Origin: Spirochaetales bacterium | GTDB taxonomy: Bacteria; Spirochaetota; Spirochaetia; Treponematales; UBA12059 | Direction: 5' to 3' | Length of the DNA: 64,000 nt | Assembly (NCBI GenBank): GCA_016928955.1 | Contig: JAFGJV010000048.1 | Location: 1-64,000, forward strand | Part shown: piece after piece, positions 11,267 through 35,092 of the stretch | How positions within the stretch are numbered: position 1 is the first letter of the stretch | Layout: every line of letters starts with the position of its first letter | The notes under the pieces: model-generated | What the model saw: only the letters and a program-made list of their open reading frames with translations | Told to the model about the DNA's origin: nothing | Databases searched by the model: none | Translations under genes and position numbers: made by a program

Positions 11267-12553
11267 TTACAGGATGTGCTTGAGCACGAAGAACGCGCCT
11301 ACCACCCAGGTAACCACGGATATCTCCTTGATCTTTCCGGTGATGGCCTTGAGGAAGATGTAGGACAGGATACCGAACACCAGGCCTTCTGCGATGCTGT
11401 AGGTCAGCGGCATGAACAGCATGGTGATGAAGGCGGGGATGGCCTCGGTGAAGTCGGAGAGGTCAATGTCCTTGACCGGGCTCAGCATGAACAAGCCAAC
11501 CAGAATGAGGGCCGGAGCGGTGGCCGCTCCGGGTACCAGGAGGAAGAGCGGCGAGAAAAGCAGGGCCAGGCCGAACAGCACCGAGGTGGTGACGGCGGTA
11601 AGGCCGGTGCGGCCGCCGTCCGCCACGCCCGAGGCGCTTTCAATGTACGACGTGACGGTGGAGGTACCGAGGGCGGCGCCCGCCACGGTGCCCACGGCGT
11701 CGGACAGAAGGGCCTGTTTGACGCGGGGGATCTCGCCGTTCTTGTTAATGAGACCGGCCTGCGTGGTGACGCCTACCAGGGTGCCTATGGTGTCAAAAAT
11801 ATCGACGAACAGGAACGTGAAGAACACGATGAAGAAATCAAGCGTCAGCACCTTGTCGAACTGGAACTGGAAGAACAGGGGCGCGTCGGGCAGCTTGAAC
11901 GGGGTCCAGCCTTTGGGAATTGAGGTGACGCCAAAGGGAATTCCGATAAGGGTCGTGGCCACTATGCCTATGAGCAGGGCGCCTTTTACCTTGAAGGCCA
12001 GAAGCACGCCGGTCAGCACGAGGCCTATGAGAGCCACAAGGACCTTGCCGTCGCCCATGGAACCGAGGCCGACCAGGGTTGCGTCGTTGTTCACAACGAT
12101 TCCCGCGTTCTGGAGGCCTATGAAGGCTATGAACAGGCCTATGCCCACGGATACGGCCCGCTTGATGTTGGCCGGGATGGATTTGATGATGGCTTCCCTG
12201 ATATTGAACAGGGACATCAGGATGAAGACGATACCTTCCAGGAACACTGCGGTCAGGGCGAGCTGCCAGGGGTAGCCCATCCCGAGCACCACGGTGAAGG
12301 CAAAGAAGGCGTTCAGGCCCATGCCCGGTGCCAACGCTATGGGCAGATTGGCCACCAAGCCCATCATCAACGTGGCAATCAGCGAAGCCAGGGCCGTGGC
12401 GGTGAACACGGCTCCCGCCGGCATGCCGGCGGCGGACAGAATTCCGGGGTTGACGGCCAGAATGTAGGCCATGGTCATGAAGGTCGTTATGCCCGCCATG
12501 ATTTCCGTGCGCACATTGGTGTTATGCGCTTTTAGCTGGAAAAGTTTTTCCAC
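11267..12553 (-). CDS. NCS2/AzgA-family purine permease
   Basis: AGITTFMTMAYILAVNP, ALAPGMGLNAFF, DIFDTIGT, TSYIESASGV, GGRTGLT. Confidence 0.93.
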   Translation of the reverse strand: MEKLFQLKAHNTNVRTEIMAGITTFMTMAYILAVNPGILSAAGMPAGAVFTATALASLIATLMMGLVANLPIALAPGMGLNAFFAFTVVLGMGYPWQLALTAVFLEGIVFILMSLFNIREAIIKSIPANIKRAVSVGIGLFIAFIGLQNAGIVVNNDATLVGLGSMGDGKVLVALIGLVLTGVLLAFKVKGALLIGIVATTLIGIPFGVTSIPKGWTPFKLPDAPLFFQFQFDKVLTLDFFIVFFTFLFVDIFDTIGTLVGVTTQAGLINKNGEIPRVKQALLSDAVGTVAGAALGTSTVTSYIESASGVADGGRTGLTAVTTSVLFGLALLFSPLFLLVPGAATAPALILVGLFMLSPVKDIDLSDFTEAIPAFITMLFMPLTYSIAEGLVFGILSYIFLKAITGKIKEISVVTWVVGAFFVLKHIL

Positions 12554-12643
12554 CGTTCAGCCTCCTCGCGTTGATGCTTATCCGCCCATACCAGGCGTCG
12601 CGCACGGCTCCGAAGGTCCGCCGCAAGCATTCGTATCCAGACG

Positions 12644-12672
12644 AGCCTACGCCCTGCCCGTCCAACACGCAA
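12644..12672 (-). promoter_or_regulatory. sigma70-type promoter of the permease
   Basis: TTGCGT-N17-TAGGCT, followed by an ~85-nt structured leader and a GAGGAGG RBS. Confidence 0.55.
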
Positions 12673-12763
12673 GCTTTTTTTAGCGGGAACACAATTACTT
12701 GTGTCGCGCTTGGGGCCCAGCAACGTAAACTGCGGGAATTTCTCTTTTTTGGACGATTTTTAT

Positions 12764-12791
12764 TTGACAAAGCAGGGAACCCTGCTACAAT
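12764..12791 (+). promoter_or_regulatory. sigma70 promoter of ade with a palindrome in its spacer
   Basis: TTGACA-N16-TACAAT; AGCAGGG-AA-CCCTGCT at 12771-12786. Confidence 0.75.
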
Positions 12792-12862: not shown

Positions 12863-14602
12863 ATGCTGAAATCAGACTATATCGCCGTAGCGCGGGGGCG
12901 TACTCCCGCGGACCTCAACCTTACCCACTGCCGCGTCGTGGACTTTTTCCGCGGCCGCGTTTTGGATGAAGCCACGGTATCGGTGTACAGGGGCTACGTG
13001 GTCGGCGTGAACGACGGCCTCAAGGCGGCCGAGACCAGGGATCTAGGCGGGGCCTATCTCTGCCCGGGCCTGGTTGACGCCCATGTTCATATAGAATCCA
13101 GTCTCCTGTCGCCGGCCGAATTCGCCCGCCTGGTGGTGCCCCGCGGCACGCTGTCCGTTGTGGCCGATCCCCACGAGATAGCCAACGTGCAGGGGTACGA
13201 CGGCATCATGTGGATGCTCAGGGCCTCGGAAGGCCTTCCACTTGACTGCTACTTCATGGCCCCGTCCTGCGTCCCGGCCACGGGCTTTGACACGGCGGGG
13301 GCCGAGCTGTACGCGTCGGACCTGGCGCCCTTCGCACGGGAGGAACGAGTCCTTGGCCTTGGCGAGGTGATGAACTACCCCGGTGTCCTGTCGGGCGACC
13401 CCCGCGTGCTGGACAAGATGTCCTTGTTCTGGGAAGCGGGAAAGGCCATAGACGGCCACGCGCCGGGCTTGTCCGGCCGCGACCTGTCCGCCTATGTGAT
13501 GGCCGGCATCCGCAGCGACCACGAGGCCACCACCCCGGAAGAGGCTCTTGAGAAACTCGGCAAAGGCGTATGGATCATGGCGCGCTTCGGATCCGGCGCC
13601 CGGGACCTGGAAAACCTAATTCCAGCCATGACGCCGGATACCTGCCGCCGCATGATGCTGTGCACTGACGACCGCCACCCCAACGACATAGCCGGCGAGG
13701 GGCATATAGACGCGGCCGTGCGCTCCCTGGTGGCCGGCGGCGTACCCTGGATGGACGCCCTCCGCATGGCCTGCCACAACCCGTCCCTGTACTACGGACT
13801 CAGGCGGCGCGGAGCCATAGCTCCCGGCTACAAGGCCGACTTCATCACCTTCTCCGACCCTGCCGATTTCCGCGTGTCCGCCGCGTACCGGGCAGGCGCC
13901 TTGGTCGCGGCCAACGGCTCGCCCACGGATGGCTTTGAGGCCTTCGGCGCCGAGCGCCGCCTGGCACCGGCCGTGCGCGACTCGGTCAACATCAAGTGGC
14001 TGGAGGAAAAGGATTTCCGCATTCCGGACGAGGGCGGAGCTGTCCGCGTCATAGAGGCGCGGGCCAATTCCATAGTCACAGCCGCTTCCGAGGCCAGGCC
14101 CCTGGTAGACAACGGCCTCTGCCTGGCTGATACAAGCAGGGACCTGCTCAAGATATTCGTCATCGAGCGCCATACCGGCTCGGGCTCCATAGGCAAGGGC
14201 TTCATACGAGGCCTGGGCCTCAAGAAGGGCGCCGTGGGCTCCACTGTCAGCCACGACTCGCACAACATGATCATTGCCGGTGTGGACGACGCGTCCATAT
14301 TCAAGGCTGCCCGCCGCCTGAACGCCATGAAGGGCGGCTTTGTTGTCACCGATGGCGACGACGTGGTGGCCGAGCTCGCCCTTCCGGTTGCCGGGCTCAT
14401 GAGCGACCGCCCAGCATCCGAAGTCCTTGCCGCCCTGGACGGCTTTGAGCGCTATTTCAAGGAGCAGGGCGTACACGGGGACTCCCCCCTTACCCTGTTG
14501 TCCTTTATGGCCTTACCGGTGATACCCAGCCTCAAGATCACCGACAAGGGCCTTGTGGACGTGGATCGGTTCGAGATGGTACCGCTGTTCAAGGGATCTT
14601 GA
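12863..14602 (+). CDS. ade: Adenine deaminase
   Basis: DAHVHIESS, DPHEIANV, PSCVPAT, GEVMNYP, DGHAP, SDHE, CTDD, SHDSHN; start set at ATG 12863. Confidence 0.95.
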   Translation: MLKSDYIAVARGRTPADLNLTHCRVVDFFRGRVLDEATVSVYRGYVVGVNDGLKAAETRDLGGAYLCPGLVDAHVHIESSLLSPAEFARLVVPRGTLSVVADPHEIANVQGYDGIMWMLRASEGLPLDCYFMAPSCVPATGFDTAGAELYASDLAPFAREERVLGLGEVMNYPGVLSGDPRVLDKMSLFWEAGKAIDGHAPGLSGRDLSAYVMAGIRSDHEATTPEEALEKLGKGVWIMARFGSGARDLENLIPAMTPDTCRRMMLCTDDRHPNDIAGEGHIDAAVRSLVAGGVPWMDALRMACHNPSLYYGLRRRGAIAPGYKADFITFSDPADFRVSAAYRAGALVAANGSPTDGFEAFGAERRLAPAVRDSVNIKWLEEKDFRIPDEGGAVRVIEARANSIVTAASEARPLVDNGLCLADTSRDLLKIFVIERHTGSGSIGKGFIRGLGLKKGAVGSTVSHDSHNMIIAGVDDASIFKAARRLNAMKGGFVVTDGDDVVAELALPVAGLMSDRPASEVLAALDGFERYFKEQGVHGDSPLTLLSFMALPVIPSLKITDKGLVDVDRFEMVPLFKGS

Positions 14603-14834: not shown

Positions 14835-14846
14835 TAAGGAATCGCC

Positions 14847-16301
14847 ATGAAACGCGTCATACGCTTCAGGCTCAACGAACGCCTGTACGAAGAGGAAATC
14901 GGCTCGGAACAGCCCGCCCTGGACTGGATACGCAAGACAGCTGGCCTGACCGGCACCAAGGAAGGCTGCCGGGAAGGCGACTGCGGCGCCTGCCTGGTAC
15001 TGCTCGGCGGCCGCGGCATGGATGGCCGGCCTGAGTGGAAAGCCGTCACGTCTTGCACGCTGGGCATGGGCGAGCTGGACGGACGCCACCTGGTGACCAT
15101 CGAGGGCCTGGCATCCGGCGGCCTCACGCCGGTCATGGAGGCCATGCTTGACGAGGGTGCCAGCCAGTGCGGGTTCTGCTCGCCCGGCTTCATCATAGCC
15201 CTTACGGGTTTCCTGGTGTCCGGCCAGGCCATAGACCCGGTGTCCGCCATGGCGTCCGTGGAAGGCAATTTGTGCCGCTGTACCGGCTACGGCTCCATCC
15301 GCCGTGCCGCGTCCATACTGGCCAGGGACTTTGCGGACCTGCCCGCGGGGCTTGAGCGGCGCCTGCCCGAGCTAGCGCGGCGACACGTTCTCCCGGCCGC
15401 CCTTGCCCAGCTCATGCTTGAGCCGCCCGAACCGGCCGGTTCCCAGGGCGCGGCCTTTGCGGCCATACACCCCGAGGATCCTTCGCTTGTGGACCTGGGC
15501 GGCGGCACGGACTGGTACGTACGCAACCCTGATCCCGACCCCGACCTGGCCCCCCGCTTCTCAGACCAGGCCCCCGGAGCCCGGTCCATACGCGCCGGCG
15601 GCAGCGCCGAGCGCCCCGTGCTTGAGCTTGGCTCAGCGGTGACCGTGGACGACTTCTTTGCCTCGCCGCTGGTCCGGAACCTGGCTCCCGGCATCGAGCG
15701 CTTTGCCGCGGACATGGCCAGTCCCCCGATTAGGGCACGCGCCACCCTGGCGGGCAATATCGTCAACGCGTCGCCCATAGCAGACCTCACATCCATGCTC
15801 CTGGCCCTGGGAGCCCGCCTGGTCCTGGAAGGCGGCCCGGACGGGGAGCGCCTCCTGGAATTGTCGGACTTTTTCCTGGGCTACAAGAAAACGGATATCC
15901 GCGACGGGGAGCGCGTGCGTGGCATCCTGATACCCGCGTCGCCCCTCCGCTTCAACTTTGAGAAGGCGGCAAAACGAGCGCGCCTGGACATAGCCACGGT
16001 CAACACGGCCATGGCCGTGACGCTCGCCCCGGACGGCGGCATAGCGTCGGTCAGGGCGTCGGCCGGCGGCGTGGCTCCGGTGCCCCTGCGCATGGTGGCG
16101 CTGGAAAACGCCATGGTCGGCAAACAGCCGTCCGCCGCCCTCGCGCGGGAAGCCGGCAAGCTGGCCTACGACTGCGGCTCGCCCATAGGTGACGTGCGTG
16201 GATCGGCCGGCTACCGGCGCCGCCTCATGGAGCGGCTTACCTGGGCCCACTTCATCCGGCTGTGGCCGGAGCTTGGCCTGGAAAAGGAGCTCCTGGCATG
16301 A
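14847..16301 (+). CDS. xdhA: Xanthine dehydrogenase small subunit (2x[2Fe-2S] + FAD)
   Basis: GTKEGCREGDCGAC, SQCGFCSPGF, GNLCRCTGY, GGGTD, ATLAGNIVNASPIAD, DVRGSAGYR. Confidence 0.9.
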   Translation: MKRVIRFRLNERLYEEEIGSEQPALDWIRKTAGLTGTKEGCREGDCGACLVLLGGRGMDGRPEWKAVTSCTLGMGELDGRHLVTIEGLASGGLTPVMEAMLDEGASQCGFCSPGFIIALTGFLVSGQAIDPVSAMASVEGNLCRCTGYGSIRRAASILARDFADLPAGLERRLPELARRHVLPAALAQLMLEPPEPAGSQGAAFAAIHPEDPSLVDLGGGTDWYVRNPDPDPDLAPRFSDQAPGARSIRAGGSAERPVLELGSAVTVDDFFASPLVRNLAPGIERFAADMASPPIRARATLAGNIVNASPIADLTSMLLALGARLVLEGGPDGERLLELSDFFLGYKKTDIRDGERVRGILIPASPLRFNFEKAAKRARLDIATVNTAMAVTLAPDGGIASVRASAGGVAPVPLRMVALENAMVGKQPSAALAREAGKLAYDCGSPIGDVRGSAGYRRRLMERLTWAHFIRLWPELGLEKELLA

Positions 16302-18496
16302 AGCGCAATCCCGAATCCGTGCTCAACGTTCTTGGCAAGACCCAATACCTGGACGACCTGCCGGAAAACGCCGGCATGCTCCATGCCGCCGTGGTGCTGT
16401 CGCCGTCCGCCCATGGCCGTTTTTCGGGCCTGGACACCGCGGCGGCTCTGGCCATGGATTCCTCCGTACGCGTGGTGGTGGCGGCAGACATACCCGGCCA
16501 GAACGAGCTTGGCACGGCCGTGTTCGACGAGCCGCTCCTGGCCGCCGGCGAATGGCACTACCACGGCCAGGTGCTGGCCCTGGTCCTGGCGTCCAGCCGC
16601 TCGCTGGCCAGGAAAGCGGCGGCCCGCGTGGCCGTCCAGGGGGCCGAACAGCTGCCCGCGGTGACCGACCCGAGGGAGGCGGCCGCCCGGGGAAACATCA
16701 TACTCAGCCCCCGCACCCAGCGTTCCGGCGACGTGGATACCGCCTTCTTGGCCTGCGACGTGGTGGTATCCGGCCGCGTGGAGTCGGGCGGACAGGAACA
16801 CGTGTACCTGGAGACCCAGGGAGCCATAGCCTGGCCGGACGATTCTGGCGGCGTGCGCCTTTTGTCGGGAACCCAGTCCCCGTCCGGTGTGCAGAAGATC
16901 GTGGCCCGCGTCCTTGGCCTGCCCATGAACCTGGTCGAGGTGGAAACCAGGCGCTTGGGCGGCGCGTTCGGCGGCAAGGAGGACCAGGCAACGGGCTGGG
17001 CGGCCCTGGCTGCCCTCGGCGCCGTGGTCAGCGGCCGGCCGGTCAAGATCAACCTCAACCGCCGCGACGACATGGTCGCCACGGGCAAACGCCATCCCTA
17101 TTCGTCGGACTTCCGCATAGGCCTGAAAAAGGACGGAACCATCTTGGCCTTTGAGGCGGATTTCTACCAGAACTCGGGCGCGGCCACAGACCTGTCGCCA
17201 GCCATCATCCCGCGCACCCTCTTCCACGCGGCCGGCGCCTACCACATACCCAATGTCCGCGTGACGGGCACCATGTGCCGCACCAACCTGATTCCCTTCA
17301 CGGCCTTCAGGGGCTTTGGCGGGCCCCAGGGCTTCTTCGTGATAGAGAGCGCCATAGACGCCGCGGCCAGGGCCCTGGGCATTGAGCCCGCCGACATACA
17401 GCGCCGCAACCTGCTGTCCGATGGCGACGAGTTCCACTACGGCATGGTCGCGGAGGATCCACGCGCCAAGGAGACCATGGAGCGCTGCCTGGCCAAGGCA
17501 GACTGGAACAAGCTCAGGGCAGACATACGCGACTTCAACGCGGCTCACGCCGGGCTGAAACGCGGGGCGGCCGCAACGCCCGTGTGCTTTGGCATCAGCT
17601 TTACCAAGATCATGATGAACCAGGGAGGGGCCCTGGTCCATATATACAATGACGGCTCCGTGGGCGTGAGCACGGGCGCCGTCGAGATGGGCCAGGGAGT
17701 TGGCCGCAAAATAGCCCTCGTCGTGGCCGATGCCCTGGGCATACCCGATTCCAAGGTCAAGATAGAGACCACCCGCACGGTCACCGTGGCCAACACCATG
17801 CCCACGGCGGCCAGCACCGGAACGGACATAAACGCCATGGCCGCCAAGATAGCCTGCGACCAGCTCCGCGCCCGCCTGGACGCGCTGGCCAAGGACAGAC
17901 CCGGCCTGGACTTTGTCCAACTGGTAGCCCTGGCCCACGAACAGCGGGTGGACCTGTCGGCCCACGCCTTCTACGCCACGCCCGGCCTCCACTATGACCT
18001 GGCAACCGAGAAGGGCAAACCCTTCCACTACCACGTATACGGATGCGCCGTGGTTACCGCCACGCTGGACGTGCTCAGGGGCACATACCAGTTCGACGAC
18101 GCGTTCATTGTTCACGATATAGCCCACTCCATAGACCCGGTGATAGATCGTGGCCAGGTGGAAGGAGCTTTTGCCCAGGGCCTGGGCTGGGCAGCCCTGG
18201 AGGAACTGGCCTTTGGAGCCGACGGTCGCCTGCTTGCCAACACCCTGTCCACCTACAAACTGCCTGACGCTCATTTCATGCCGCGCATGGACGTGGAATT
18301 CCTCGAGCGGCCCAATCCCGGCACCGTGGCCAACTCCAAGGCCGTGGGCGAGCCGCCCCTGATGTACGGCATAGCCGGCTACTTTGCCGTGCTGGACGCC
18401 CTGAAAGCCGTCCATCCGGACAAACCCGCCTTCTATGACCTTCCCATGACCCCTGAGAAGGCCCTGCGCTTCCTGAGCGAGGAGGACAGCCCATGA
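16298..18496 (+). CDS. xdhB: Xanthine dehydrogenase molybdopterin-binding subunit
   Basis: GGQEHVYLE, GGAFGGKE, AFRGFGGPQG, EMGQG, TAAS, KAVGEPP; ATGA overlap with xdhA. Confidence 0.92.
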   Translation: MKRNPESVLNVLGKTQYLDDLPENAGMLHAAVVLSPSAHGRFSGLDTAAALAMDSSVRVVVAADIPGQNELGTAVFDEPLLAAGEWHYHGQVLALVLASSRSLARKAAARVAVQGAEQLPAVTDPREAAARGNIILSPRTQRSGDVDTAFLACDVVVSGRVESGGQEHVYLETQGAIAWPDDSGGVRLLSGTQSPSGVQKIVARVLGLPMNLVEVETRRLGGAFGGKEDQATGWAALAALGAVVSGRPVKINLNRRDDMVATGKRHPYSSDFRIGLKKDGTILAFEADFYQNSGAATDLSPAIIPRTLFHAAGAYHIPNVRVTGTMCRTNLIPFTAFRGFGGPQGFFVIESAIDAAARALGIEPADIQRRNLLSDGDEFHYGMVAEDPRAKETMERCLAKADWNKLRADIRDFNAAHAGLKRGAAATPVCFGISFTKIMMNQGGALVHIYNDGSVGVSTGAVEMGQGVGRKIALVVADALGIPDSKVKIETTRTVTVANTMPTAASTGTDINAMAAKIACDQLRARLDALAKDRPGLDFVQLVALAHEQRVDLSAHAFYATPGLHYDLATEKGKPFHYHVYGCAVVTATLDVLRGTYQFDDAFIVHDIAHSIDPVIDRGQVEGAFAQGLGWAALEELAFGADGRLLANTLSTYKLPDAHFMPRMDVEFLERPNPGTVANSKAVGEPPLMYGIAGYFAVLDALKAVHPDKPAFYDLPMTPEKALRFLSEEDSP

Positions 18497-27216: not shown

Positions 27217-28674
27217 ATGATCGATTTACGGATTGACGAGAAAGCCCGCAGGAAGAACATCGAGCGCTGCAAGCAGAACAACATCATACTGCCCACCTAC
27301 GAGCAGATGCGCGACCCGTCCAAGGTGCCCCAGTCCGTCAAGGACGAGCTCAAGAACATAGGACTCTGGGACGTCCACAGCCGCAACCTGTTCCGCGTCA
27401 CCTGGAAAAACGAACCAACGGAAAAAGGCGGCCAATTCGGCGGGGTCAACTACTTTGAGCTTCCGCGCCAGCTCACCGGCACCAAGGCTCGGATAGCCGG
27501 CGTGGTGGGCAAATGGTTCCCCACGGGCGCCCACAAGGTTGGCGCCACCTACTCCTGCCTGGTGTCCGAACTGATTACGGGCCGCTTTGACCCCACCACC
27601 AAAAAAGCCGTATGGCCGAGCACCGGCAACTATTGCCGCGGCGGCGCGTACGTATCCCGGCTCCTCACCTGCCCGTCTGTGGCCATCCTGCCGGCAGAGA
27701 TGTCCAAGGAGCGCTTCGAGTGGCTCAAGACCATGGCCGACGAGGTGATAGCCACCCCCGGCTGCGAGTCCAACGTGTGGGAAATCTTCGTCAAATGCAT
27801 TGAAATAGAGTCCAACCAGCCCGACGCTGTCATCTTTAACCAGTTCGACCAGCTGCCCAACCACCTGTGGCACTACACCGTCACCGGTCCGGCCCTGGAA
27901 GAAGTGTACAAGGCCATGGCGACCAAGGGCGAGCATCTGGCCCTGACCATGTACTCGTCGGGCTCGGCGGGCACCCTGGGCGCGGGCAGTTACCTCAAGG
28001 AACGGTACAACGGCCACCGCGTCGGCGCCGGCGAAGCCCTGCAGTGCCCCACCATCCTGGAAAACGGCTTTGGCGGCCACCGCATAGAGGGCATAGGCGA
28101 CAAGCACATCCCCTGGATCCACAACCTTCGCGACACCGACCACGCCGTGGCCGTTGACGACGAGATAACCATCCGCCTGCTCCGCCTGTTCAACGAACCC
28201 GCCGGCCGGGCTGTGCTAGTTGAAGCCGGCGTCCCCCAGGAGACGGTGGACCAGCTCGACCTCCTGGGCATATCCGGCATTGGCAATCTGGTGGCCACCA
28301 TCAAGGCGGCCAAGTTCTACGAGCTCAGGGACGACGACATTGCCCTGACCGTGTTCACCGATTCACTCCAGCTGTACGGATCGCGGCTCAGGGAGCTGAC
28401 CGCCGAGCGCGGCCCCTACACCCAGCGCCAGGCCGACAAGGACCTTGACCTGCTCCAGAACCTGTCCGTGGACCACGTGCTGGACATGGGCCATATTGAG
28501 CGCCGCCGCGTCCACCAGCTCAAGTACTACACCTGGATCGAGCAGATGGGCAAAAGCCTGGACGAGCTCAACGAGCAGTGGGACAATTACCGCCAGTACT
28601 GGGGCAAACTCCATGACCAGGTCGACACCATCGACCAGATGATCAAGGACTTCAATGCGGAGGTTCTCAAGTGA
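27217..28674 (+). CDS. Large cysteine-synthase-like fold-type-II PLP enzyme (485 aa)
   Basis: FPTGAHKVGA (PLP lysine), PSTGNY, NQF, SGSAGT, HRIEGIGD; AAGGAG RBS before ATG 27217. Confidence 0.85.
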   Translation: MIDLRIDEKARRKNIERCKQNNIILPTYEQMRDPSKVPQSVKDELKNIGLWDVHSRNLFRVTWKNEPTEKGGQFGGVNYFELPRQLTGTKARIAGVVGKWFPTGAHKVGATYSCLVSELITGRFDPTTKKAVWPSTGNYCRGGAYVSRLLTCPSVAILPAEMSKERFEWLKTMADEVIATPGCESNVWEIFVKCIEIESNQPDAVIFNQFDQLPNHLWHYTVTGPALEEVYKAMATKGEHLALTMYSSGSAGTLGAGSYLKERYNGHRVGAGEALQCPTILENGFGGHRIEGIGDKHIPWIHNLRDTDHAVAVDDEITIRLLRLFNEPAGRAVLVEAGVPQETVDQLDLLGISGIGNLVATIKAAKFYELRDDDIALTVFTDSLQLYGSRLRELTAERGPYTQRQADKDLDLLQNLSVDHVLDMGHIERRRVHQLKYYTWIEQMGKSLDELNEQWDNYRQYWGKLHDQVDTIDQMIKDFNAEVLK

Positions 28675-30071
28675 TAGTGCTCAAGGACTGCTTCAGGGTG
28701 GTCCGGCCCCGCTACGGGGCGGGCAAGGCCGCCGGCTCCAGCACCGACGACCTTGCCGGTGTTGACGTACTCCTGGACGGAAACCGCATCGTCCGCATAG
28801 CCAAGGGCATAGACGCCCCGGCCGGCTGCGAGGTTGTGGACGCGTCCAGGCACGTGGTCATGCCGGGCCTTGTGAACACGCACCACCATTTCTACCAGAC
28901 GCTTACGCGCAACGTGCCGGCCGTCCAGGACGCCAAGCTGTTCAAATGGCTGGTGTACCTGTATGAGGTATGGAAGGGCGTGGACGAGGAGGCGGTGTAC
29001 TGGTCCAGCATGCTCGCCCTGGCCGAGTTGGCCAAGACGGGCTGCACCCTGTCCACCGACCACCACTATCTCTATCCCCAGGGCTTCAAGGACGACCTGC
29101 CCGGCCTCCAGTTCAAGGCCGCAGCGGACATCGGTCTCCGCTTTGCCCCCACGCGCGGTTCCATGTCGCGTTCCAAAAAGGACGGCGGCCTGCCCCCGGA
29201 CAGCGTTGTCCAGGACGAGGACACTATCCTGGCCCAGAGCGAGGCTGCCCTGCGCGCATACCACGACCCGGCGCCGGACGCCATGCGCAAGCTGGCCCTT
29301 GCGCCGTGTTCGCCCTTCTCCGTGTCCGAGCAGAGCATGAAGGACGCCGCCGCCCTGGCCCGCCGCTACGGCGCCCGGCTCCACACGCACCTGGCCGAAA
29401 CCAAGGACGAGGACGAGTTCTGCGTCAAGATGTACGGCCGCCGTCCGCTCAAGGTCATGGAGGACTGCGACTTTATCGGGCCGGACGTGTGGTACGCCCA
29501 CGGTATACATTTCAACGACGACGAGCTCAAACTGCTGGCTGAAACCAAGACCGGCGTTGCCCACTGCCCGTCCAGCAACATGCGGCTGGGTTCCGGCATA
29601 TGCCGCGTGCGCGAAATGCTGGACCTCGGCATACCCGTGGGCCTGGCCGTTGACGGCTCGGCCTCCAACGACGCGTCGGATATGCTGGGCGAGGCCAGGC
29701 AGGCCCTGCTCCTTCAGCGGGTGCGCTACGGCTCGGCAGGCATCACCGCCCGCGAGGTCCTGGGCCTGGCCACCCAGGGCGGAGCCCGCATCCTGGGCTA
29801 CGATGAGGCCGGCCGCATGGAGGAAGGCGCCCTGGCCGACCTTGCCCTGTTTGACGTCATGAAACTGGAGTACGCGGGGGCCCTGTCCGACCCGGCTGCC
29901 GCCCTGCTCTTTTCGGGGTACAATCACGGCGTGGATCACCTGATTGTCAATGGTCGTTTTGTCGTCCGGAATTCACGCCTTGTGGGCGCGGATGAGGAGC
30001 GCATACGCGACGAGGCCAATCGCTGCGCCAAGCGCCTCCTCCAGAAAGCGGGGGTACAGGCTGAATGGTAA
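28671..30071 (+). CDS. 8-oxoguanine-deaminase-like amidohydrolase
   Basis: NTHHHFYQ, DHHY, RGSMS, APCSPFSV (PCS motif of the 8-oxoguanine/isoxanthopterin deaminase group), HLAET, DGSASND. Confidence 0.8.
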   Translation: MIVLKDCFRVVRPRYGAGKAAGSSTDDLAGVDVLLDGNRIVRIAKGIDAPAGCEVVDASRHVVMPGLVNTHHHFYQTLTRNVPAVQDAKLFKWLVYLYEVWKGVDEEAVYWSSMLALAELAKTGCTLSTDHHYLYPQGFKDDLPGLQFKAAADIGLRFAPTRGSMSRSKKDGGLPPDSVVQDEDTILAQSEAALRAYHDPAPDAMRKLALAPCSPFSVSEQSMKDAAALARRYGARLHTHLAETKDEDEFCVKMYGRRPLKVMEDCDFIGPDVWYAHGIHFNDDELKLLAETKTGVAHCPSSNMRLGSGICRVREMLDLGIPVGLAVDGSASNDASDMLGEARQALLLQRVRYGSAGITAREVLGLATQGGARILGYDEAGRMEEGALADLALFDVMKLEYAGALSDPAAALLFSGYNHGVDHLIVNGRFVVRNSRLVGADEERIRDEANRCAKRLLQKAGVQAEW

Positions 30072-30874
30072 ACGAATATGTTAGACCGGCTTCCCTTGAG
30101 GAAGCCCTGGAGCTCATGGAGGACGACGGCAGCGTGGCCTCCGCTGGCGGCACCTTCCTCTTGACCGGCTACGAGGTCGGCCGCGGACGGGACATGGACT
30201 GCATGATAGACGTGCTCCAGCTCCTGCCCTCAGGCGTCACCCGGAGCGGCAACGAGCTGTCCATAGGCTCGGGCACCACCTTCCAGGCCCTCATAGACTC
30301 CAAGGACGCGCCTGCGTGCCTGAAGGCGGCCGCCCTGTCCATGGCCAACCGCAACACCCGGAACCGGGCGACCGTGGGCGGCAACCTGGGGGCAAACAAG
30401 GCATGCGCAAGCCTTCCGCCCATACTCCTGGCCCTCGGCGCCAAGGTCGAGTTCAAAGCCCGGGCGTCCGCTCCCCTGACCCTGGACCTGGACAAGTGGC
30501 TGGCCGCCCCTGAAGGCCTTGTGCTTCGCGTGATCGTGCCCATGGCTCCAGGTACCCTGGCGGCTGCGGGCAGGGCCAGCCGCACGGCCTGCGACCTGGC
30601 CACGGCCACCGTGGGAGTGTCCTACCGACTTGAGAACGGCGTCATCCGGGGGCTCCGCGTCGCCTTGGGCGGCTTTAGCCCCCACGCCCGCCTGTTCCCG
30701 GACCTGGCCGCGCTGTTCGAGGGCACGGCCCTGCCGCCCAAGGCCGACATCGAACGCGTCGCCAAACCCCTGCTTACGGCCATATCCGACCACCGGGGAA
30801 GCGCCGACTACAAGAAACAGCGAGGCGCGGTCATCCTGGCGGACGCCATGCACGCGGCGGAGGCCCTGTCATGA
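30065..30874 (+). CDS. ygfM: Molybdenum hydroxylase FAD-binding subunit (YgfM-like)
   Basis: RPASLEEAL, AGGT, RNRATVGGN, DHRGSADYK; coupled to xdhD. Confidence 0.8.
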   Translation: MVNEYVRPASLEEALELMEDDGSVASAGGTFLLTGYEVGRGRDMDCMIDVLQLLPSGVTRSGNELSIGSGTTFQALIDSKDAPACLKAAALSMANRNTRNRATVGGNLGANKACASLPPILLALGAKVEFKARASAPLTLDLDKWLAAPEGLVLRVIVPMAPGTLAAAGRASRTACDLATATVGVSYRLENGVIRGLRVALGGFSPHARLFPDLAALFEGTALPPKADIERVAKPLLTAISDHRGSADYKKQRGAVILADAMHAAEALS

Positions 30875-33738
30875 AAACGACCTTTACCCTGAACGAGAAA
30901 CCGGTAAGCTGGAATTCGGAACCCGGACAGACCCTCCTGGACGCCCTCCGCGCCCACGGCATCGTGTCCGTACGCAACGGCTGCGACGGCGAGGGTTCAT
31001 GCGGCCTGTGCGCCGTCCTCATGGACGGAAAACAGGTCAATTCGTGCCAGATCCTCCTCCCCCAGGTGGAAGGCCGTAACATATACACGGTCGACTACTT
31101 TGGCAAGAACCGGTCCTTGTCCATAGTCCAGCGGGCCCTCATAGACGCCGCCTGCGTCCAGTGCGGCTACTGCACGCCCGCGGTGGTCCTTGCCCTTCAC
31201 GAGCTGCTTGCCCGCTCCCCCGACCCCAGCGAACCCGAGGTCAAGGACGCCCTGTCCGGCACCCTGTGCCGCTGCACGGGCTACGAGCAGTTCTTCAACG
31301 CGGCCCGTATAGCCAGCAAGCGCCTACGCGACCCGTCCTACTCGGAAGCCGCGTCCGAGCAGTTCCGTCCCGACCTCCGCCACGTGGGCAAGGACAGGGA
31401 CAAGGTCGACGCGGTGGCCCTGGCCAGGGGCGAGCGAGCCTTTGTGGAGGACCGCGTGGCCGCCGACGCCTGTCACCTGTTCGTGCTCGGCAGTCCCCAC
31501 GCCCACGCGTACATAAAGAGCGTGGACATCAGCAAGGCCGAAGCCATGCCCGGCGTGGTCAAGGTGCTGTGCAAGGACAACTGCCCGGACCTGGTGTACA
31601 CCACGGCCGGCCAGGGTTTCCCGGAACCCAGCCCCCACGACCAGCGCATGTTCCCGCGCAAGGCCCGTTTTGTCGGCGACCGCGTGGCCGCCGTCCTGGC
31701 CGAGACGCCCGAACAGGCCAAGGCCGCCCTGTCGGCCATCACCGTTGAGTACGATGTCCTGGAGCCCGTCCTGTCCATAGCCCAGGCCAAGGCCAAAGGC
31801 GCCCCGATAGTCCACCACGGCGACGTTTCGTACGTGGTCGGCGACCCGCCAGAGGGCAGTTCCGTCAAGGGTGACGGCCGTGACGACCCCATCCTGTACC
31901 AGTTCCCCCTGCACGCCGACCCGCACCGCAACCTGGCCGCCAGCGTTTCCGACGGCATAGGCGACATGGACAAGGGTTTTGCCGAGGCGGACGTGGTCAT
32001 AGAGCGCACGTACGTGGGCAACCGCGTGCAGTGCACGCCCATGGAACCCCATGTGGTATACGCCCGCATGGACGGCGGACGCCTGATACTCCACGCGTCC
32101 ACCCAGGTGCCCTGGCACGTCCGGCGCATCGTGTCGCGAGCCATAGGCGTGAGCGAGAACAAGGTCCGCGTGGTCAAGGAACGCGTGGGCGGCGGTTTCG
32201 GCGCCAAGCAGGACATCGTCGTGGAGGACCTGGCCGGCTACCTGGCCTGGACCACCGGACGCGACGTGTTCTACCGCTACAACAGGGAAGAGGAATTCGC
32301 CGCCAGCCGCACCAGGCACGGCATGGAGATCACGGTCAAGCTGGGAGCAAAAAAAGACGGCACCCTGACCGCCGTGCTCATGCAGCTGGACGCCGACACC
32401 GGCCCCTACGGCCAGCACTGCCTGACCGTGCCCATGAACGCCATATCCAAGAGCCTGCCCCTGGTGCTGTGCGACAACGCCAGGTTTGAGGTCAGAAGCT
32501 GGTATACCAACCTGTCGCCCGCCGGCGCCTATCAGGGTTACGGCGCGCCCAAAGGCTCCTTTGCCCTCCAGACGGCCTTGGCCGAGCTGGCCGCCGAGCT
32601 TGGCATGGACCAGCTGGACCTGATAGAGAAGAACCGCGTCCGCTCGGGCAGCCGCATCGAGATACTGCGCTCCCTGGGCGAGGGCAGGCCCGGCCAGCCG
32701 GTTACCCTGGGCGAATGCGGCCTGGGCGAGATGATCAGGCGCGGCAGGGTCAACCTCGAGTGGGACAAGCCCAAGCCAAAGGCCAGCGCCGATGGCTGGA
32801 AGGTCGGGCGCGGCGGCGTCATCATACAGCAGGGCTCGGGCCTTCCCGGCCTGGACGCTGCCAACGCCGAGCTCAGGCTCCTGTCGGACGGTACCCTCCT
32901 CATGCTGTCGGGCGGCGCCGACCTGGGTACGGGCCTTGATACGGTCACGGCCAAGGCTGCCGCCGAGATACTCGGCCTGGACATGGAAGACGTGAGCGTC
33001 GTATCGGGCGACACGGACACCACGCCCTTTGACAAGGGCGCGTACGCCAGCTCGGGCACCTACTTCTCAGGCAACGCCGCCGTCAAGGCGGCCCTGGACC
33101 TCAAGGCCAAGTGCATTTCCGTGGCCGCGGGCATCCTGGGCGAACCGGAGAGCGACCTTGCCATCGTCCCGCGCGGCATCATACGCGGCAAGCGCGGCGA
33201 GATCACCCTGGCCAAGCTGGCCCACCTGTCCATCCAGGGCGAGGGCCACCACGAACTGGTCGGCTTTGGCAACTTCAAGACCGAGCACGCCGCCTTCCCC
33301 TATGGCGCCCATTTTGCCCAGGTTGAGGTGAACGAGCGCTCGGGAGAGGTACGCATCACCCGTTACCATGCGTACCAGGACTGCGGCACGCCCATCAACC
33401 CCGCCCTGGCCATGGGCCAGATATACGGCGGCGTCATGAAAGCCGTCGGCCACTCCCTCTACGAGGAACTCCTGTTCGACAACAAGGGCCGGCCCCTGAA
33501 CACCAATTTCCTGGACTACAAGATACCGAGCGTGTTCGAGGTGCCTGACGACTTCCACGTGGAGCTGGTGCCCGTGGCCGACGAGGAAGGCCCCTTTGGC
33601 GGCAAGAGCGTTTCCGAGATTTCGCTCAACGGATCGGCCCCGGCCATAGCCATAGCCATCCACGACGCCGTTGGCGTATGGATGCGCGAATGGCCCTTCA
33701 CCCCCGAGCGCATCCTCAAGGCAATGGGGAAGTTATAA
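30871..33738 (+). CDS. xdhD: XdhD-type fused [2Fe-2S]-molybdopterin oxidoreductase
   Basis: GCDGEGSCGLC, QCGYCTP, CRCTGY, STQVP, GGGFGAKQD, AYQGYGAPKG, YASSGT, KSVSEI; 955 aa. Confidence 0.88.
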   Translation: MKTTFTLNEKPVSWNSEPGQTLLDALRAHGIVSVRNGCDGEGSCGLCAVLMDGKQVNSCQILLPQVEGRNIYTVDYFGKNRSLSIVQRALIDAACVQCGYCTPAVVLALHELLARSPDPSEPEVKDALSGTLCRCTGYEQFFNAARIASKRLRDPSYSEAASEQFRPDLRHVGKDRDKVDAVALARGERAFVEDRVAADACHLFVLGSPHAHAYIKSVDISKAEAMPGVVKVLCKDNCPDLVYTTAGQGFPEPSPHDQRMFPRKARFVGDRVAAVLAETPEQAKAALSAITVEYDVLEPVLSIAQAKAKGAPIVHHGDVSYVVGDPPEGSSVKGDGRDDPILYQFPLHADPHRNLAASVSDGIGDMDKGFAEADVVIERTYVGNRVQCTPMEPHVVYARMDGGRLILHASTQVPWHVRRIVSRAIGVSENKVRVVKERVGGGFGAKQDIVVEDLAGYLAWTTGRDVFYRYNREEEFAASRTRHGMEITVKLGAKKDGTLTAVLMQLDADTGPYGQHCLTVPMNAISKSLPLVLCDNARFEVRSWYTNLSPAGAYQGYGAPKGSFALQTALAELAAELGMDQLDLIEKNRVRSGSRIEILRSLGEGRPGQPVTLGECGLGEMIRRGRVNLEWDKPKPKASADGWKVGRGGVIIQQGSGLPGLDAANAELRLLSDGTLLMLSGGADLGTGLDTVTAKAAAEILGLDMEDVSVVSGDTDTTPFDKGAYASSGTYFSGNAAVKAALDLKAKCISVAAGILGEPESDLAIVPRGIIRGKRGEITLAKLAHLSIQGEGHHELVGFGNFKTEHAAFPYGAHFAQVEVNERSGEVRITRYHAYQDCGTPINPALAMGQIYGGVMKAVGHSLYEELLFDNKGRPLNTNFLDYKIPSVFEVPDDFHVELVPVADEEGPFGGKSVSEISLNGSAPAIAIAIHDAVGVWMREWPFTPERILKAMGKL

Positions 33739-33743
33739 ATGCA

Positions 33744-33857
33744 GCCACGGAGCCACGGAGCTAGGGGAAAAACAAGAGATGTGAAGGATTCACGGCGCAC
33801 GCCTTTTCCCTCGCTTCTTGTCTCTTCCCCTGCGTCTCGGTGTCTCTGTGGTTTTTT
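33744..33857. repeat. Long imperfect hairpin with CACGGAG-type ends
   Basis: GCCACGGAGCCACGGAG..AGGGGAAAAACAAGA pairs with TCTTGTCTCTTCCCCT..CTCGGTGTCTCTGTGGT; followed by a T-run. Confidence 0.65.
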
Positions 33858-33895
33858 GTGAAGTTGTTTTCGCTGATTACTCATGGAGGTTACTG

Positions 33896-35092
33896 ATGAG
33901 CGTTAATGAGATTAAAGCCCTGATCGACAGGCTGGCCGCCAAGAAGATCGGGATGTACCACAAGGACTTTCTCCTGACCTGGGAGAAGACCCGCGACGAG
34001 ATAGACGCCACCTTCCTGGTGGCCGACATCCTGCGCGGCATGCGCGACGCCAACGTGAGCCCGCGCGTGTGGCACTCCGGCATAGCCGTGTCCAACTTCC
34101 GCGACAATTCCACCCGCACTCGTTTTTCCTACGCCAGCGCCTGCGACCTTCTGGGCCTGTACGTCCAGGACCTGGACGAGGGCAAGAGCCAGATAGCCCA
34201 CGGCGAGACCGTGCGCGAGACGGCCGCCATGATCAGCTTCCTCACCGAGGCCATAGGCATACGAGACGACATGTACCTGGGAGAGGGCGACCGCTACCAG
34301 CGCGAGGTCGGCTCAGCCCTGGACGCGGCCGTGGCTTCCGGCGTGCTCCCGGACCGGCCCACCGTGGTCAACCTCCAGAGCGACATCGACCACCCTACCC
34401 AGGCCATGGCCGACTTCCTCCACCTGGCCCACCACTTCGGCGGCATCGGCAAGCTCAAGGGCAAGAAAATCGCCATGACCTGGGCGTACTCTCCGTCCTA
34501 CGGCAAGCCCCTGTCCGTGCCCCAGGGCATCATAGGCCTGGCCAGCCGCTTTGGCATGGACATCACCCTGGCCCACCCCGAAGGCTACGACCTCATACCG
34601 GACGTGGTTGCCCTGTCCAAGAAACAGGCGGCGGAGTCCGGCGGCTCCTTCACGCACGTCAATTCCATGGACGATGCCTTCAAGGGCGCGGACATCGTCT
34701 ATCCCAAGAGCTGGGCACCCTTTGACGTCATGCAAAAGCGCGTGCCCCTGCTCAAGGCCGGCGACCAGGCTGGGCTCAAGGACCTGGAAAAAACCTGCCT
34801 TGCCAACAACGCGCGCTTCCAGGACTGGGAGTGCACGGAAGAAAAAATGAAACTGACCAAGGACGGCAAGGCCCTGTACATGCACTGTCTGCCCGCCGAC
34901 ATCACCGGCGTGTCCTGCAAGGCTGGAGAGGTGGCCGCCAGCGTCTTTGAGCGCTACCGCGACGACACCTACCGCGAGGCCGGTTTCAAGCCGTACATCA
35001 TAGCCGCCATGATTCTGCTCGGAAAGCGCAAGGACCCGGCGGCTACCCTGCGCGCCCTCCTGGAAAAGGGCCACCAGCGCGAGACCCTATAG
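33896..35092 (+). CDS. ygeW: Knotted carbamoyltransferase YgeW
   Basis: DFLLTW, FRDNSTRTRFS, HGETVRET, IRDD, HPTQ, WAYSPSYGKPLSVPQG, HCLPAD; GGAGGT RBS. Confidence 0.95.
   Translation: MSVNEIKALIDRLAAKKIGMYHKDFLLTWEKTRDEIDATFLVADILRGMRDANVSPRVWHSGIAVSNFRDNSTRTRFSYASACDLLGLYVQDLDEGKSQIAHGETVRETAAMISFLTEAIGIRDDMYLGEGDRYQREVGSALDAAVASGVLPDRPTVVNLQSDIDHPTQAMADFLHLAHHFGGIGKLKGKKIAMTWAYSPSYGKPLSVPQGIIGLASRFGMDITLAHPEGYDLIPDVVALSKKQAAESGGSFTHVNSMDDAFKGADIVYPKSWAPFDVMQKRVPLLKAGDQAGLKDLEKTCLANNARFQDWECTEEKMKLTKDGKALYMHCLPADITGVSCKAGEVAASVFERYRDDTYREAGFKPYIIAAMILLGKRKDPAATLRALLEKGHQRETL

What the first reader, a model, noticed from the sequence alone, without database searches (positions are those of the whole stretch)
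11267..35092. ~24-kb purine-catabolism island joining an oxidative funnel to a variant reductive urate pathway in a probable spirochaete
Seen: permease, ade, xdhAB, allantoinase-like hydrolase, ygfK, ssnA, ygeY, two PLP enzymes, 8-oxoguanine-deaminase-like enzyme, ygfM-xdhD and ygeW, mostly coupled by ATGA/GTGA overlaps. Known: xdhD/ygfK/ssnA/hyuA/ygeW/ygeY/ygeX form the anaerobic urate (2,8-dioxopurine) pathway of E. coli and clostridia. Inference: Ade+XdhAB take adenine to urate, the deaminase takes 8-oxoguanine to urate, and the reductive branch then degrades it. The gene set differs from the model clusters: no recognisable ygeX, hyuA, carbamate kinase or selenium-maturation genes in the window.
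Basis: partly seen in the sequence, partly recalled or inferred. Interest (0 to 1): 0.8.

Follow-up and report, generated by a model that had tools for sequence, protein, structure and literature searches.

The report
Anaerobic purine island with replacement enzymes
This spirochaete gene island most likely breaks purines down without oxygen by the uric-acid route solved in gut bacteria in 2025, but two standard enzymes are missing from the genome and appear to be replaced by a mislabelled "allantoinase" and a mislabelled "threonine synthase", with a third, unstudied vitamin-B6 enzyme beside them.

Summary
All 14 genes are real. YgfK, SsnA, YgeY, XdhD and YgeW pass curated cut-offs. Carbamate kinase, selD, yqeB and yqeC lie elsewhere in the 99.5%-complete genome, so that part of the claimed difference falls. 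HyuA and YgeX are absent genome-wide. Two island genes behave as their stand-ins. Among 35 ygeY-positive genomes of a 271-genome phylum sample, 10 have the ThrC-like gene, 24 have YgeX and none has both; 7 have the AllB-like gene, 25 have HyuA and none has both. Kin inflate these counts, and 5 of 50 other genomes carry ThrC-like and YgeX together. The AllB-like clade lacks allantoinase residues N94/S317 and sits beside ssnA/ygfK, never allC. A conserved 485-aa CysK-fold enzyme has no assigned step. The pathway and its presence in Spirochaetota are published; my searches found no paper on the stand-ins. This scan had already noted the PLP pair on other DNA, but not the AllB-for-HyuA swap. Verdict: new variant of a known pathway, with no biochemical test yet.

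The parts
11267..12553 (-). NCS2/AzgA-type purine-base permease, divergently oriented
   Evidence: PF00860; 35% identical to E. coli GhxQ, the guanine/hypoxanthine transporter
12764..12791 (+). sigma-70-like promoter consensus (TTGACA-16-TACAAT, 11 of 12, extended -10) upstream of ade
   Evidence: only a pattern match (4 sites found vs 2.4 +/- 1.6 in shuffles)
12863..14602 (+). adenine deaminase Ade
   Evidence: TIGR01178 569.5 > 472.5
14847..16301 (+). xanthine dehydrogenase small subunit (2Fe-2S + FAD), Rhodobacter XdhA type
   Evidence: TIGR02963 best match, 286 < 467; Pfam domains
16298..18496 (+). xanthine dehydrogenase Mo subunit, Rhodobacter XdhB / XOR type
   Evidence: TIGR02965 738 < 849.5; best PDB hits are XOR and 1JRO, GGKE / FRGFG / GEPP motifs kept
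18493..19938 (+). allantoinase-like cyclic amidohydrolase; proposed stand-in for HyuA (ureidomethylhydantoin hydrolase)
   Evidence: TIGR03178 332.9 < 357.85, TIGR02033 197 < 393; metal ligands kept, AllB N94->T and S317->A; own clade; never with HyuA; context
19935..23102 (+). YgfK, 2,8-dioxopurine reductase
   Evidence: TIGR03315 1008 > 835; 43% to E. coli
23099..24421 (+). SsnA, ring-opening amidohydrolase
   Evidence: TIGR03314 509 > 455.5; 50% to E. coli
24418..25638 (+). YgeY, ureido hydrolase (M20)
   Evidence: TIGR03526 491.7 > 321.5; 51% to E. coli
25703..26878 (+). PLP1: ThrC-fold PLP enzyme with N-terminal Cys pairs (Lys103); proposed stand-in for YgeX (diaminopropionate to pyruvate)
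   Evidence: ThrC fold; own clade and motifs; complementary to YgeX; no homoserine pathway in the genome
26879..27216 (.). 338-nt spacer filled by genome-wide short repeats (insertion; not part of the mechanism)
   Evidence: 77 blastn rows on many contigs; the same gap is 22-97 nt in three relatives
27217..28674 (+). PLP2: 485-aa CysK/CBS-fold PLP enzyme (Lys107), highly conserved, step unassigned
   Evidence: PF00291 weak, all cysteine-synthase models far below cut-off; model pLDDT 92, best folds CysK/CBS at 20-26% identity; at least 590 relatives among species genomes
28671..30071 (+). 8-oxoguanine-deaminase-family enzyme (8-oxoguanine and/or guanine deaminase)
   Evidence: NF006055 601.5 > 532; best PDB hits 3HPA and 7WW2; no GuaD in the genome
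30065..30874 (+). YgfM, FAD subunit of the urate reductase
   Evidence: TIGR03312 best match but 86.7 < 241.5; 30% to E. coli YgfM over full length
30871..33738 (+). XdhD, urate reductase (urate to 2,8-dioxopurine)
   Evidence: TIGR03313 1167 > 1101.9; 50% to E. coli; E606 kept as E604
33896..35092 (+). YgeW, knotted carbamoyltransferase
   Evidence: TIGR03316 656 > 500; 66% to E. coli

Best explanation
A complete anaerobic purine-fermentation module with two non-orthologous replacements. Purine bases enter by the permease. Ade turns adenine into hypoxanthine, the deaminase turns 8-oxoguanine into urate and probably guanine into xanthine, and XdhAB oxidises hypoxanthine and xanthine to urate (family-level inference). 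XdhD-YgfM reduces urate to 2,8-dioxopurine, YgfK reduces the ring and SsnA opens it to ureidomethylhydantoin (UMH) (shown for the E. coli/Clostridium orthologues, inferred here). The AllB-like enzyme opens UMH to 2,3-diureidopropionate in place of HyuA (inferred, about 0.8). YgeW plus the unlinked carbamate kinase remove one ureido group and make ATP, and YgeY removes the other (orthologues shown). The ThrC-like PLP1 converts 2,3-diaminopropionate (DAP) to pyruvate and ammonia in place of YgeX (inferred, about 0.65), with PLP2 acting on DAP or a ureido-alanine precursor in an accessory step. My leading guess for PLP2 is beta-replacement to serine, which SdaA then deaminates (about 0.35). From adenine the sum is pyruvate + 5 NH3 + 2 CO2 + 1 ATP, with the two oxidations balancing the two reductions (arithmetic from the published steps).
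For: Core orthologues over cut-off. arcC, selD, yqeB, yqeC elsewhere. No YgeX or HyuA in a 99.48%-complete genome; only three PALP genes, the third being CysK. Phylum sample of 271 genomes: PLP1 19, YgeX 29, both 0; among 35 ygeY-positive: 10 PLP1, 24 YgeX, 1 neither. AllB-like 12, HyuA 32, both 0; among the 35: 7, 25, 3 neither, one of which has a frameshift-split AllB-like gene in its cluster. All 12 AllB-like genomes have ygfK and PLP1. In 50 PLP2 genomes from many phyla: AllB-like 10, hydantoinase (E <= 1e-85) 33, both 0. Of 80 metagenome loci, 63 belong to the clade: 36 have a reductive-pathway neighbour, 0 allC/allE, 0 ygeX; the 17 true-allantoinase-type loci have 13 allC/allE-like and 0 reductive neighbours. 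No uricase, OHCU decarboxylase, allA/C/D/E or homoserine dehydrogenase, and a separate PyrC.
Against: No enzyme of this locus has been assayed; both assignments rest on co-occurrence, context and residues. 21 of the 24 YgeX genomes among the 35 are one family, so the independent contrasts are few (PLP1 in 4 families, YgeX in 3). 5 of 50 PLP2 genomes hold both PLP1 and YgeX. PLP1 has Thr where YgeX has Asp120, the base proposed in the E. coli structure, while the Dodd preprint assigns the intermediates the (R) form. 4 of the 13 AllB-like genomes (counting the split one) carry a sub-cut-off hydantoinase elsewhere, and the HyuA counted for G112 lies in a pyrimidine cluster. 10 of 35 clade loci of 8 kb or more show no reductive neighbour. 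PLP1 and PLP2 travel together (17 of 19 each), so either or both could do the last step.
Confidence: 0.6

Rival explanations
1. Same pathway, but the exit is a two-enzyme route: PLP2 and PLP1 together convert DAP (or albizziin directly) to serine or 2-aminoacrylate, and SdaA finishes the job. PLP1 alone is not a DAP lyase.
For: PLP1 and PLP2 co-occur in 17 of 19 phylum genomes each. PLP2 has a beta-replacement (CysK/CBS) fold. An SdaA gene follows PLP2 within a few genes in 7 of 80 loci, and the genome has SdaA at C46.
Against: It is PLP1, not PLP2, that is complementary to YgeX; PLP2 also sits beside intact YgeX (D120 and D189 kept) in 6 loci. Two PLP1 genomes (G086, G094) have no PLP2 match.
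Confidence: 0.22
2. The amidohydrolase is a true allantoinase for imported allantoin, linked to the oxamate carbamoyltransferase genes (AllF/G/H-like) on contig C23. The UMH step is then done by something else or does not occur.
For: Best NCBIfam and PDB matches are allantoinases; sister to E. coli AllB in the tree, support 93; JGI names many relatives 'allantoinase'; AllH, FdrA and AllG genes exist in the genome.
Against: Below the AllB cut-off. N94 and S317, invariant and needed for allantoinase activity (passages in PMC7417836), are replaced in all six cluster copies aligned; S317 is Ala in 52 of 63 clade loci, unread in 11, Ser in none. No allC, allD, allE, allA, uricase or OHCU decarboxylase. 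The gene overlaps xdhB and ygfK by 4 nt.
Confidence: 0.06
3. The pathway is truncated in this lineage: the cell reduces and opens the ring, gains ATP or nitrogen part-way and excretes UMH or DAP; the extra genes serve other substrates.
For: No HyuA or YgeX in the genome. Some clade members lie outside urate clusters. PLP1+PLP2 occur in three phylum genomes without a ygfK match.
Against: YgeW and YgeY act downstream of the hydantoin-opening step and are intact and clustered. In the 41 ygfK-positive genomes examined, each has one hydantoin-opening and one terminal candidate (set chosen partly on these genes).
Confidence: 0.08
4. The two genes are housekeeping enzymes (threonine synthase, dihydroorotase) that happen to sit in the operon, as database names suggest.
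For: NCBI names some relatives 'dihydroorotase'; PLP1's nearest structures are threonine synthases; the genome has a PyrBI-type ATCase.
Against: No homoserine dehydrogenase or ThrB match. A separate PyrC lies at C52 (36% to E. coli, E 3e-53). The dihydroorotase motifs HxHxR, DMPN and DHAPH are all changed. Canonical ThrC sequences form a different clade with different motifs, and many PLP1 genomes keep one as well.
Confidence: 0.03

Closest known systems
Reductive urate / 2,8-dioxopurine (yanthine) pathway of E. coli (xdhD-ygfM, ygfK, ssnA, hyuA, ygeW, yqeA, ygeY, ygeX) and Clostridium sporogenes; Li et al. 2025 PMC12507026, Liu et al. bioRxiv 10.1101/2025.04.24.650524
   Same: Orthologues of XdhD, YgfM, YgfK, SsnA, YgeW and YgeY (30-66% identity); carbamate kinase and selD/yqeB/yqeC in the genome; purine-oxidising genes nearby, as in E. 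coli. Li et al. already report ssnA clusters in Spirochaetota, and an unlinked carbamate kinase is reported for C. sporogenes.
   Different: No HyuA and no YgeX in the genome; an AllB-like and a ThrC-like gene instead, plus PLP2. The funnel uses a Rhodobacter-type XdhAB, Ade and an 8-oxoguanine-deaminase-family gene rather than E. coli XdhABC and GuaD. The published replacements (UacX, UacY, F420 reductase) concern other steps.
Allantoinase AllB (E. coli; PDB 3E74, 3HM7)
   Same: 32% identity, the same six metal-site residues, sister clade; allantoin and UMH are both 5-substituted hydantoins carrying a ureido group.
   Different: N94->Thr and S317->Ala; below the family cut-off; no allantoin pathway in the genome; neighbours are ygfK/ssnA, not allC.
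Threonine synthase ThrC (PDB 2ZSJ, 6NMX) and diaminopropionate ammonia-lyase YgeX/DpaL
   Same: PLP1 shares the ThrC fold and Schiff-base Lys (33-35% identity, TM 0.72) and takes YgeX's place in clusters and genomes.
   Different: STGNA, NPx(T/L/M)xEGKK and GDG instead of ThrC's STGNT, NPxRxxGQK and GNAGN; no detectable similarity to E. coli YgeX at E <= 1e-3; no Asp120 equivalent.
Cysteine synthase CysK / cystathionine beta-synthase family
   Same: PLP2 core fold, TM-score to target about 0.8.
   Different: 20-26% identity, about 160 extra residues, far below every cut-off; the genome has its own CysK; automatic name only 'pyridoxal-5-phosphate-dependent protein subunit beta'.

Membership tests
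Reductive urate (2,8-dioxopurine) pathway | XdhD-YgfM urate reductase | tested here: met
   TIGR03313 over cut-off, E606 kept; YgfM below its cut-off but adjacent and 30% identical
Reductive urate (2,8-dioxopurine) pathway | YgfK and SsnA | tested here: met
   both over cut-off
Reductive urate (2,8-dioxopurine) pathway | YgeW, YgeY and carbamate kinase | tested here: met
   YgeW and YgeY over cut-off; arcC over cut-off on contig C57
Reductive urate (2,8-dioxopurine) pathway | HyuA orthologue | tested here: not met
   best genome match is the AllB-like gene, 197 bits vs cut-off 393; outside the HyuA clade
Reductive urate (2,8-dioxopurine) pathway | YgeX orthologue | tested here: not met
   no TIGR03528 or TIGR01747 match, no tblastn hit
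Reductive urate (2,8-dioxopurine) pathway | selenium-cofactor trait (selD, yqeB, yqeC) | tested here: met
   all three over cut-off elsewhere in the genome
Reductive urate (2,8-dioxopurine) pathway | urate converted to pyruvate via yanthine, UMH, DUPA, DAP | not testable with these tools
   needs enzyme assays or isotope tracing
Allantoinase AllB | binuclear metal site (H, H, K, H, H, D) | tested here: met
Allantoinase AllB | N94 and S317; TIGR03178 cut-off | tested here: not met
   Thr and Ala; 332.9 < 357.85
Allantoinase AllB | allantoin source or downstream allantoate enzymes in the genome | tested here: not met
   no uricase or OHCU decarboxylase; no tblastn hit for E. coli allA, allC, allD, allE, gcl, allW; AllF/G/H-like genes are present
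Dihydroorotase | HxHxR, DMPN and DHAPH motifs; sole PyrC candidate | tested here: not met
   motifs changed; separate PyrC on C52 (136); the role of these motifs is recalled
Threonine synthase ThrC | fold-type II PLP fold with SFKDR lysine | tested here: met
Threonine synthase ThrC | substrate-phosphate residues (T. thermophilus Thr88, Arg160, Asn188; recalled, papers not held) | tested here: not met
   Ala130, Thr202, Asp242 at the aligned positions; 8 clade members have an Arg one position later
Threonine synthase ThrC | homoserine pathway in the genome | tested here: not met
   no PF00742 match; no hit for E. coli ThrB (other homoserine-kinase types not searched)
Rhodobacter-type xanthine dehydrogenase XdhAB | TIGR02963/TIGR02965 cut-offs and catalytic Glu/Arg/Glu motifs | tested here: inconclusive
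   best families but below cut-off; GGKE, FRGFG, GEPP aligned with XOR
8-oxoguanine deaminase | NF006055 cut-off | tested here: met
   601.5 > 532
8-oxoguanine deaminase | substrate preference (8-oxoguanine vs guanine vs isocytosine) | not testable with these tools
   family members accept several (PMC10481359 passages)
Cysteine synthase CysK (for PLP2) | TIGR01139/TIGR01136 cut-offs | tested here: not met
   72 vs 351 and 66 vs 344 bits

The most novel reading that the evidence does not exclude
The lower half of the 2025 pathway is modular, and this island is the type case of a second, widespread lower half built from re-purposed enzymes: an allantoinase-derived hydantoinase that may give the opposite (S/L) series of ureido-alanines, a threonine-synthase-derived DAP lyase, and a new PLP enzyme that performs a reaction not yet described (beta-replacement of DAP or albizziin to serine, or elimination of urea from albizziin). 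A hint only: all 12 AllB-like genomes of the phylum sample and all 10 of the 50-genome set carry PLP1 and none carries YgeX (some genomes may be in both sets).
Probability: 0.25. Interest if true: 0.72.

Novelty: new variant of a known kind. Interest (0 to 1): 0.55.

Why it matters
Surveys of anaerobic urate degradation score genomes by ygeX and hyuA, or by the broad PALP family (Li et al. used PF00291 for YgeX), so they either miss or mis-assign this variant. It occurs in sludge and sediment spirochaetes, and the PLP genes also occur in Oscillospiraceae, Bacteroidales, Chloroflexota and other groups. It names three enzymes for cheap direct assay with known, partly commercial substrates, corrects likely mis-annotations ('allantoinase', 'dihydroorotase', 'threonine synthase'), and bears on the open questions of stereochemistry and ureido-cleavage order raised by Percudani (PMC12990295).

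Tried and rejected
Missing arcC/selD/yqeB/yqeC as a real difference: rejected, all found elsewhere. Recent horizontal island: not supported by GC, GC3 or the same layout in G145. PLP2 as a racemase serving an L-only lyase: tested by asking whether YgeX proteins beside PLP2 lose D120/D189; all 10 YgeX rows aligned keep both, which weakens the idea without excluding it. AllB-like gene as the cell's dihydroorotase: raised because it is the only large-type match, rejected after finding a small-type PyrC. RNA elements: no Rfam match in the window; terminator scan at chance level; repeat search inside the genes gave only GC-rich chance families. Expression: contigs of two sludge metatranscriptomes (one study) cover all 30 bins at flat low depth, including the neighbouring diguanylate cyclase gene, and a sediment RNA run covers 25 of 30, so DNA carry-over cannot be excluded; not used as evidence. 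One L072 'PLP1' hit was dropped as canonical ThrC, and the L192 'hyuA' hit is the second half of a split AllB-like gene. The structure papers on ThrC and YgeX active sites were not held, so ThrC residue roles are recalled. No complex prediction was run, as binding between PLP1 and PLP2 is not claimed. MoaA was found only below cut-off; Moco synthesis and a cytidine-deaminase-type guanine deaminase were not examined further.
Full report
OBSERVATION. The 14 genes are present and intact. A GhxQ-like permease (35%) points away from a run of 13 plus-strand genes: ade, xdhA, xdhB, an allantoinase-like gene, ygfK, ssnA, ygeY, PLP1, PLP2, an 8-oxoguanine-deaminase-family gene, ygfM, xdhD, ygeW. Seven of 12 junctions are 4-nt ATGA/GTGA overlaps, one overlaps by 7 nt and four are gaps (start codons are my choice). 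Ade, YgfK, SsnA, YgeY, XdhD, YgeW and the deaminase pass NCBIfam cut-offs; XdhA, XdhB, YgfM, the AllB-like gene and PLP1 have the expected best family but stay below cut-off. Composition matches the genome, and a same-family genome, G145, has the same 14 genes in the same order. The closest named relatives are Spirochaetota. Sixteen public runs hold half or more of the sampled words; they are labelled sediment, wastewater, sludge, digester, freshwater or just metagenome, and one may be the source of this DNA.

WHAT IS AND IS NOT MISSING. The genome (99.48% complete, 59 contigs) has carbamate kinase on C57, selD with an in-frame TGA on C37 next to selA and selB, and yqeC-yqeB on C1. It has no YgeX and no HyuA: the best D-hydantoinase match is the AllB-like gene itself at 197 bits against a cut-off of 393. 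It has only three PALP-family genes: PLP1, PLP2 and a CysK. So two steps of the published pathway lack their standard enzyme, and the island holds exactly one unexplained cyclic amidohydrolase and two unexplained PLP enzymes.

THE ThrC-LIKE GENE BEHAVES AS THE YgeX STAND-IN. In 80 loci fetched with PLP2 (the best 80 of at least 590), 43 have a full-length PLP1 (44 hits, one dropped as canonical ThrC) and 5 have YgeX, never together. I took 50 of these 80 genomes (longer contigs, all five YgeX loci included): 38 have PLP1 only, 6 YgeX only, 5 both, 1 neither (the profile was built from these loci; two PLP1 genes are split by stops). In an even sample of 271 phylum genomes of at least 90% completeness, profile scores are bimodal (gap from 325 to 431 bits): 19 have PLP1, 29 have YgeX and none has both. 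Among the 35 with ygeY, 10 have PLP1, 24 YgeX and 1 neither. Fisher's p is 6e-8 but overstates the case: 21 of the 24 are one family; by family it is 4 against 3 with none shared. Only five or six candidates per genome were scored in these large searches. The genome has no homoserine dehydrogenase and no E. coli-type ThrB. The 57 cluster copies form a clade apart from canonical ThrC (FastTree support 99) and differ at three motifs: STGNA for STGNT, no Arg in NPxRxxGQK (8 members have an Arg one place later), and GDG for GNAGN. From memory these ThrC positions hold the substrate phosphate; an Asp there would suit an amine leaving group (inference). Against: PLP1 has Thr where E. coli YgeX has Asp120, named with Lys77 as a potential catalytic residue (passage in PMC4000059).

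THE AllB-LIKE GENE BEHAVES AS THE HyuA STAND-IN. In the phylum sample 12 genomes carry it (gap from 308 to 438 bits), 32 pass the HyuA cut-off and none has both; among the 35 ygeY genomes the split is 7, 25 and 3 with neither, one of which has a frameshift-split copy in its cluster. All 12 have ygfK and PLP1. In the 50 PLP2 genomes, 10 have it, 33 have a hydantoinase at E <= 1e-85 and none has both. Caveats: G084, G120, G134 and G094 have a sub-cut-off hydantoinase elsewhere, and the HyuA counted for G112 lies in a preA/CN-hydrolase pyrimidine cluster. Fifteen cluster copies form a clade (SH-aLRT 99), sister to E. coli AllB and outside the HyuA clade (99) in a quick tree with only one true AllB. 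The metal ligands are kept, but N94 and S317, invariant residues needed for allantoinase activity (passages in PMC7417836), are Thr and Ala. An 80-locus metagenome pull gave a natural control. Of 63 clade loci, 36 have a reductive-pathway neighbour (22 ssnA or ygfK; 25 of the 35 loci of 8 kb or more), none has allC/allE or ygeX, and S317 is Ala in 52, unread in 11. Of 17 other loci, 16 keep S317 (1 unread), 13 lie beside allC/allE-like genes and none has a reductive neighbour. The genome has no uricase, OHCU decarboxylase or hits to E. coli allA, allC, allD, allE, though AllF/G/H-like genes lie on C23. It has a separate PyrC, and the dihydroorotase motifs are changed. Chemically the switch is small: allantoin is 5-ureidohydantoin and UMH is 5-(ureidomethyl)hydantoin.

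PLP2 REMAINS OPEN. It is very conserved (50-83% across many phyla), folds like CysK/CBS with Lys107 and extra helices, and carries only an automatic name. It accompanies PLP1 in 17 of 19 phylum genomes, but also intact YgeX, so it is an added step rather than the YgeX substitute. A serine dehydratase follows it in 7 of 80 loci. My ranking: beta-replacement of DAP or albizziin to serine (about 0.35), racemase (0.2, weakened), elimination of urea from the 'other' ureido-alanine isomer (0.2), sulfur or selenium supply to the Mo enzymes (0.1; it sits beside xdh and yqeB-like genes in several loci), other (0.15).

FUNNEL. XdhAB is of the Rhodobacter/XOR type with the catalytic motifs kept. With no GuaD in the genome, the deaminase may be the guanine entry as well as the 8-oxoguanine entry (passages in PMC10481359). 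A funnel beside the reductive genes is not new: E. coli has xdhABC, guaD, xanQ, ghxQ and uacT in the same locus. The run ade-xdhA-xdhB-AllB-like-ygfK-ssnA-ygeY-PLP1-PLP2 recurs in two independent metagenome contigs (L176, L187).

WHAT IS KNOWN. I read parts 1-3 of 7 of Li et al. (PMC12507026) and parts 1-3 of 9 of Liu et al. (bioRxiv 2025.04.24.650524), term-searched both main texts, read part 1 of 2 of Percudani and passages of the 2022 Dodd preprint and a 2026 review; no supplements. Li et al. report ssnA clusters in Spirochaetota and the replacements UacX, UacY and an F420 reductase; they scored YgeX by PF00291, which would also count PLP1 and PLP2. Neither main text contains 'allantoinase', 'threonine' or 'racemase'. 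Five full-text searches listed no paper on these stand-ins; the library lacks most subscription papers. Earlier notes of this scan describe the PLP pair in other genomes, found after my own tests; three look-ups found no note on the AllB-for-HyuA swap.

VERDICT. The feature is real. It works like the reductive urate pathway (about 0.9) and is a variant, not a standard member, because HyuA and YgeX were tested and not found. Best explanation 0.6 for both stand-ins together. Novelty: new variant of a known kind. Interest 0.55: the pathway is known and no activity is shown, but the comparative evidence is clean and three enzymes can be assayed directly.

Noticed in passing
L098:4489-5439, L099, L100, L102, L103, L109 (genomes G057, G103, G112, G141, G134, G084): Six ygfK-positive spirochaetes of one family lack ygeY and carry a second, ATCase-like carbamoyltransferase (87-100% identical to each other) in the urate cluster; 0 of 35 ygeY genomes have it. 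It could double ATP yield. Two ygfK genomes (G096, G253) have neither.
   Followed up: partly
window 26879-27216: The PLP1-PLP2 spacer holds two kinds of short repeat (about 100 and 140 nt) found on many contigs, often at contig ends; relatives have a 22-97 nt gap.
   Followed up: partly
L095:52-9157 (G000 contig C23): A separate cluster: XdhABC-like Mo enzyme, NCS2 permease, then AllH, FdrA/AllF and AllG-like oxamate carbamoyltransferase genes, in a genome without allC/allD/allE; substrate unknown.
   Followed up: partly
L005 / L010 (G000 contig C37): selD has an in-frame TGA (probable selenocysteine) and lies beside selA, selB, a rhodanese and a multiheme cytochrome.
   Followed up: no
window 49536-50318 (-): MobA-like NTP transferase, 24% to E. 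coli MocA, ahead of a FecCD-type ABC transporter; possible Moco cytidylyltransferase, no NCBIfam match at 1e-40.
   Followed up: partly
L016, L017, L019, L060: In betaproteobacterial and related loci a carbon-nitrogen hydrolase precedes PLP1-PLP2, with TRAP genes and SdaA in three of the four, and no ygeY in the locus; the hydrolase may replace YgeY or the cassette may use an imported ureido-alanine.
   Followed up: no
L131:1419-3942, L150:5737-8261: A different hydantoinase-like gene is paired with a different ThrC-like subfamily (DSSGNAG motif) in two spirochaetes; an unexplained look-alike module.
   Followed up: no
L170, L172, L175, L181, L190, L212, L214, L239: Members of the AllB-like clade without urate genes nearby; some lie near urocanase or formiminotransferase genes, or ahead of TRAP transporters.
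   Followed up: partly
window 2130-4062 (-): PfkB kinase plus indigoidine-synthase-A-like gene, the usual pseudouridine kinase/glycosidase pair (name recalled); another nucleobase salvage module.
   Followed up: no
window 39104-41343 (+): Radical SAM/HhH gene followed by a DUF4130 gene.
   Followed up: no
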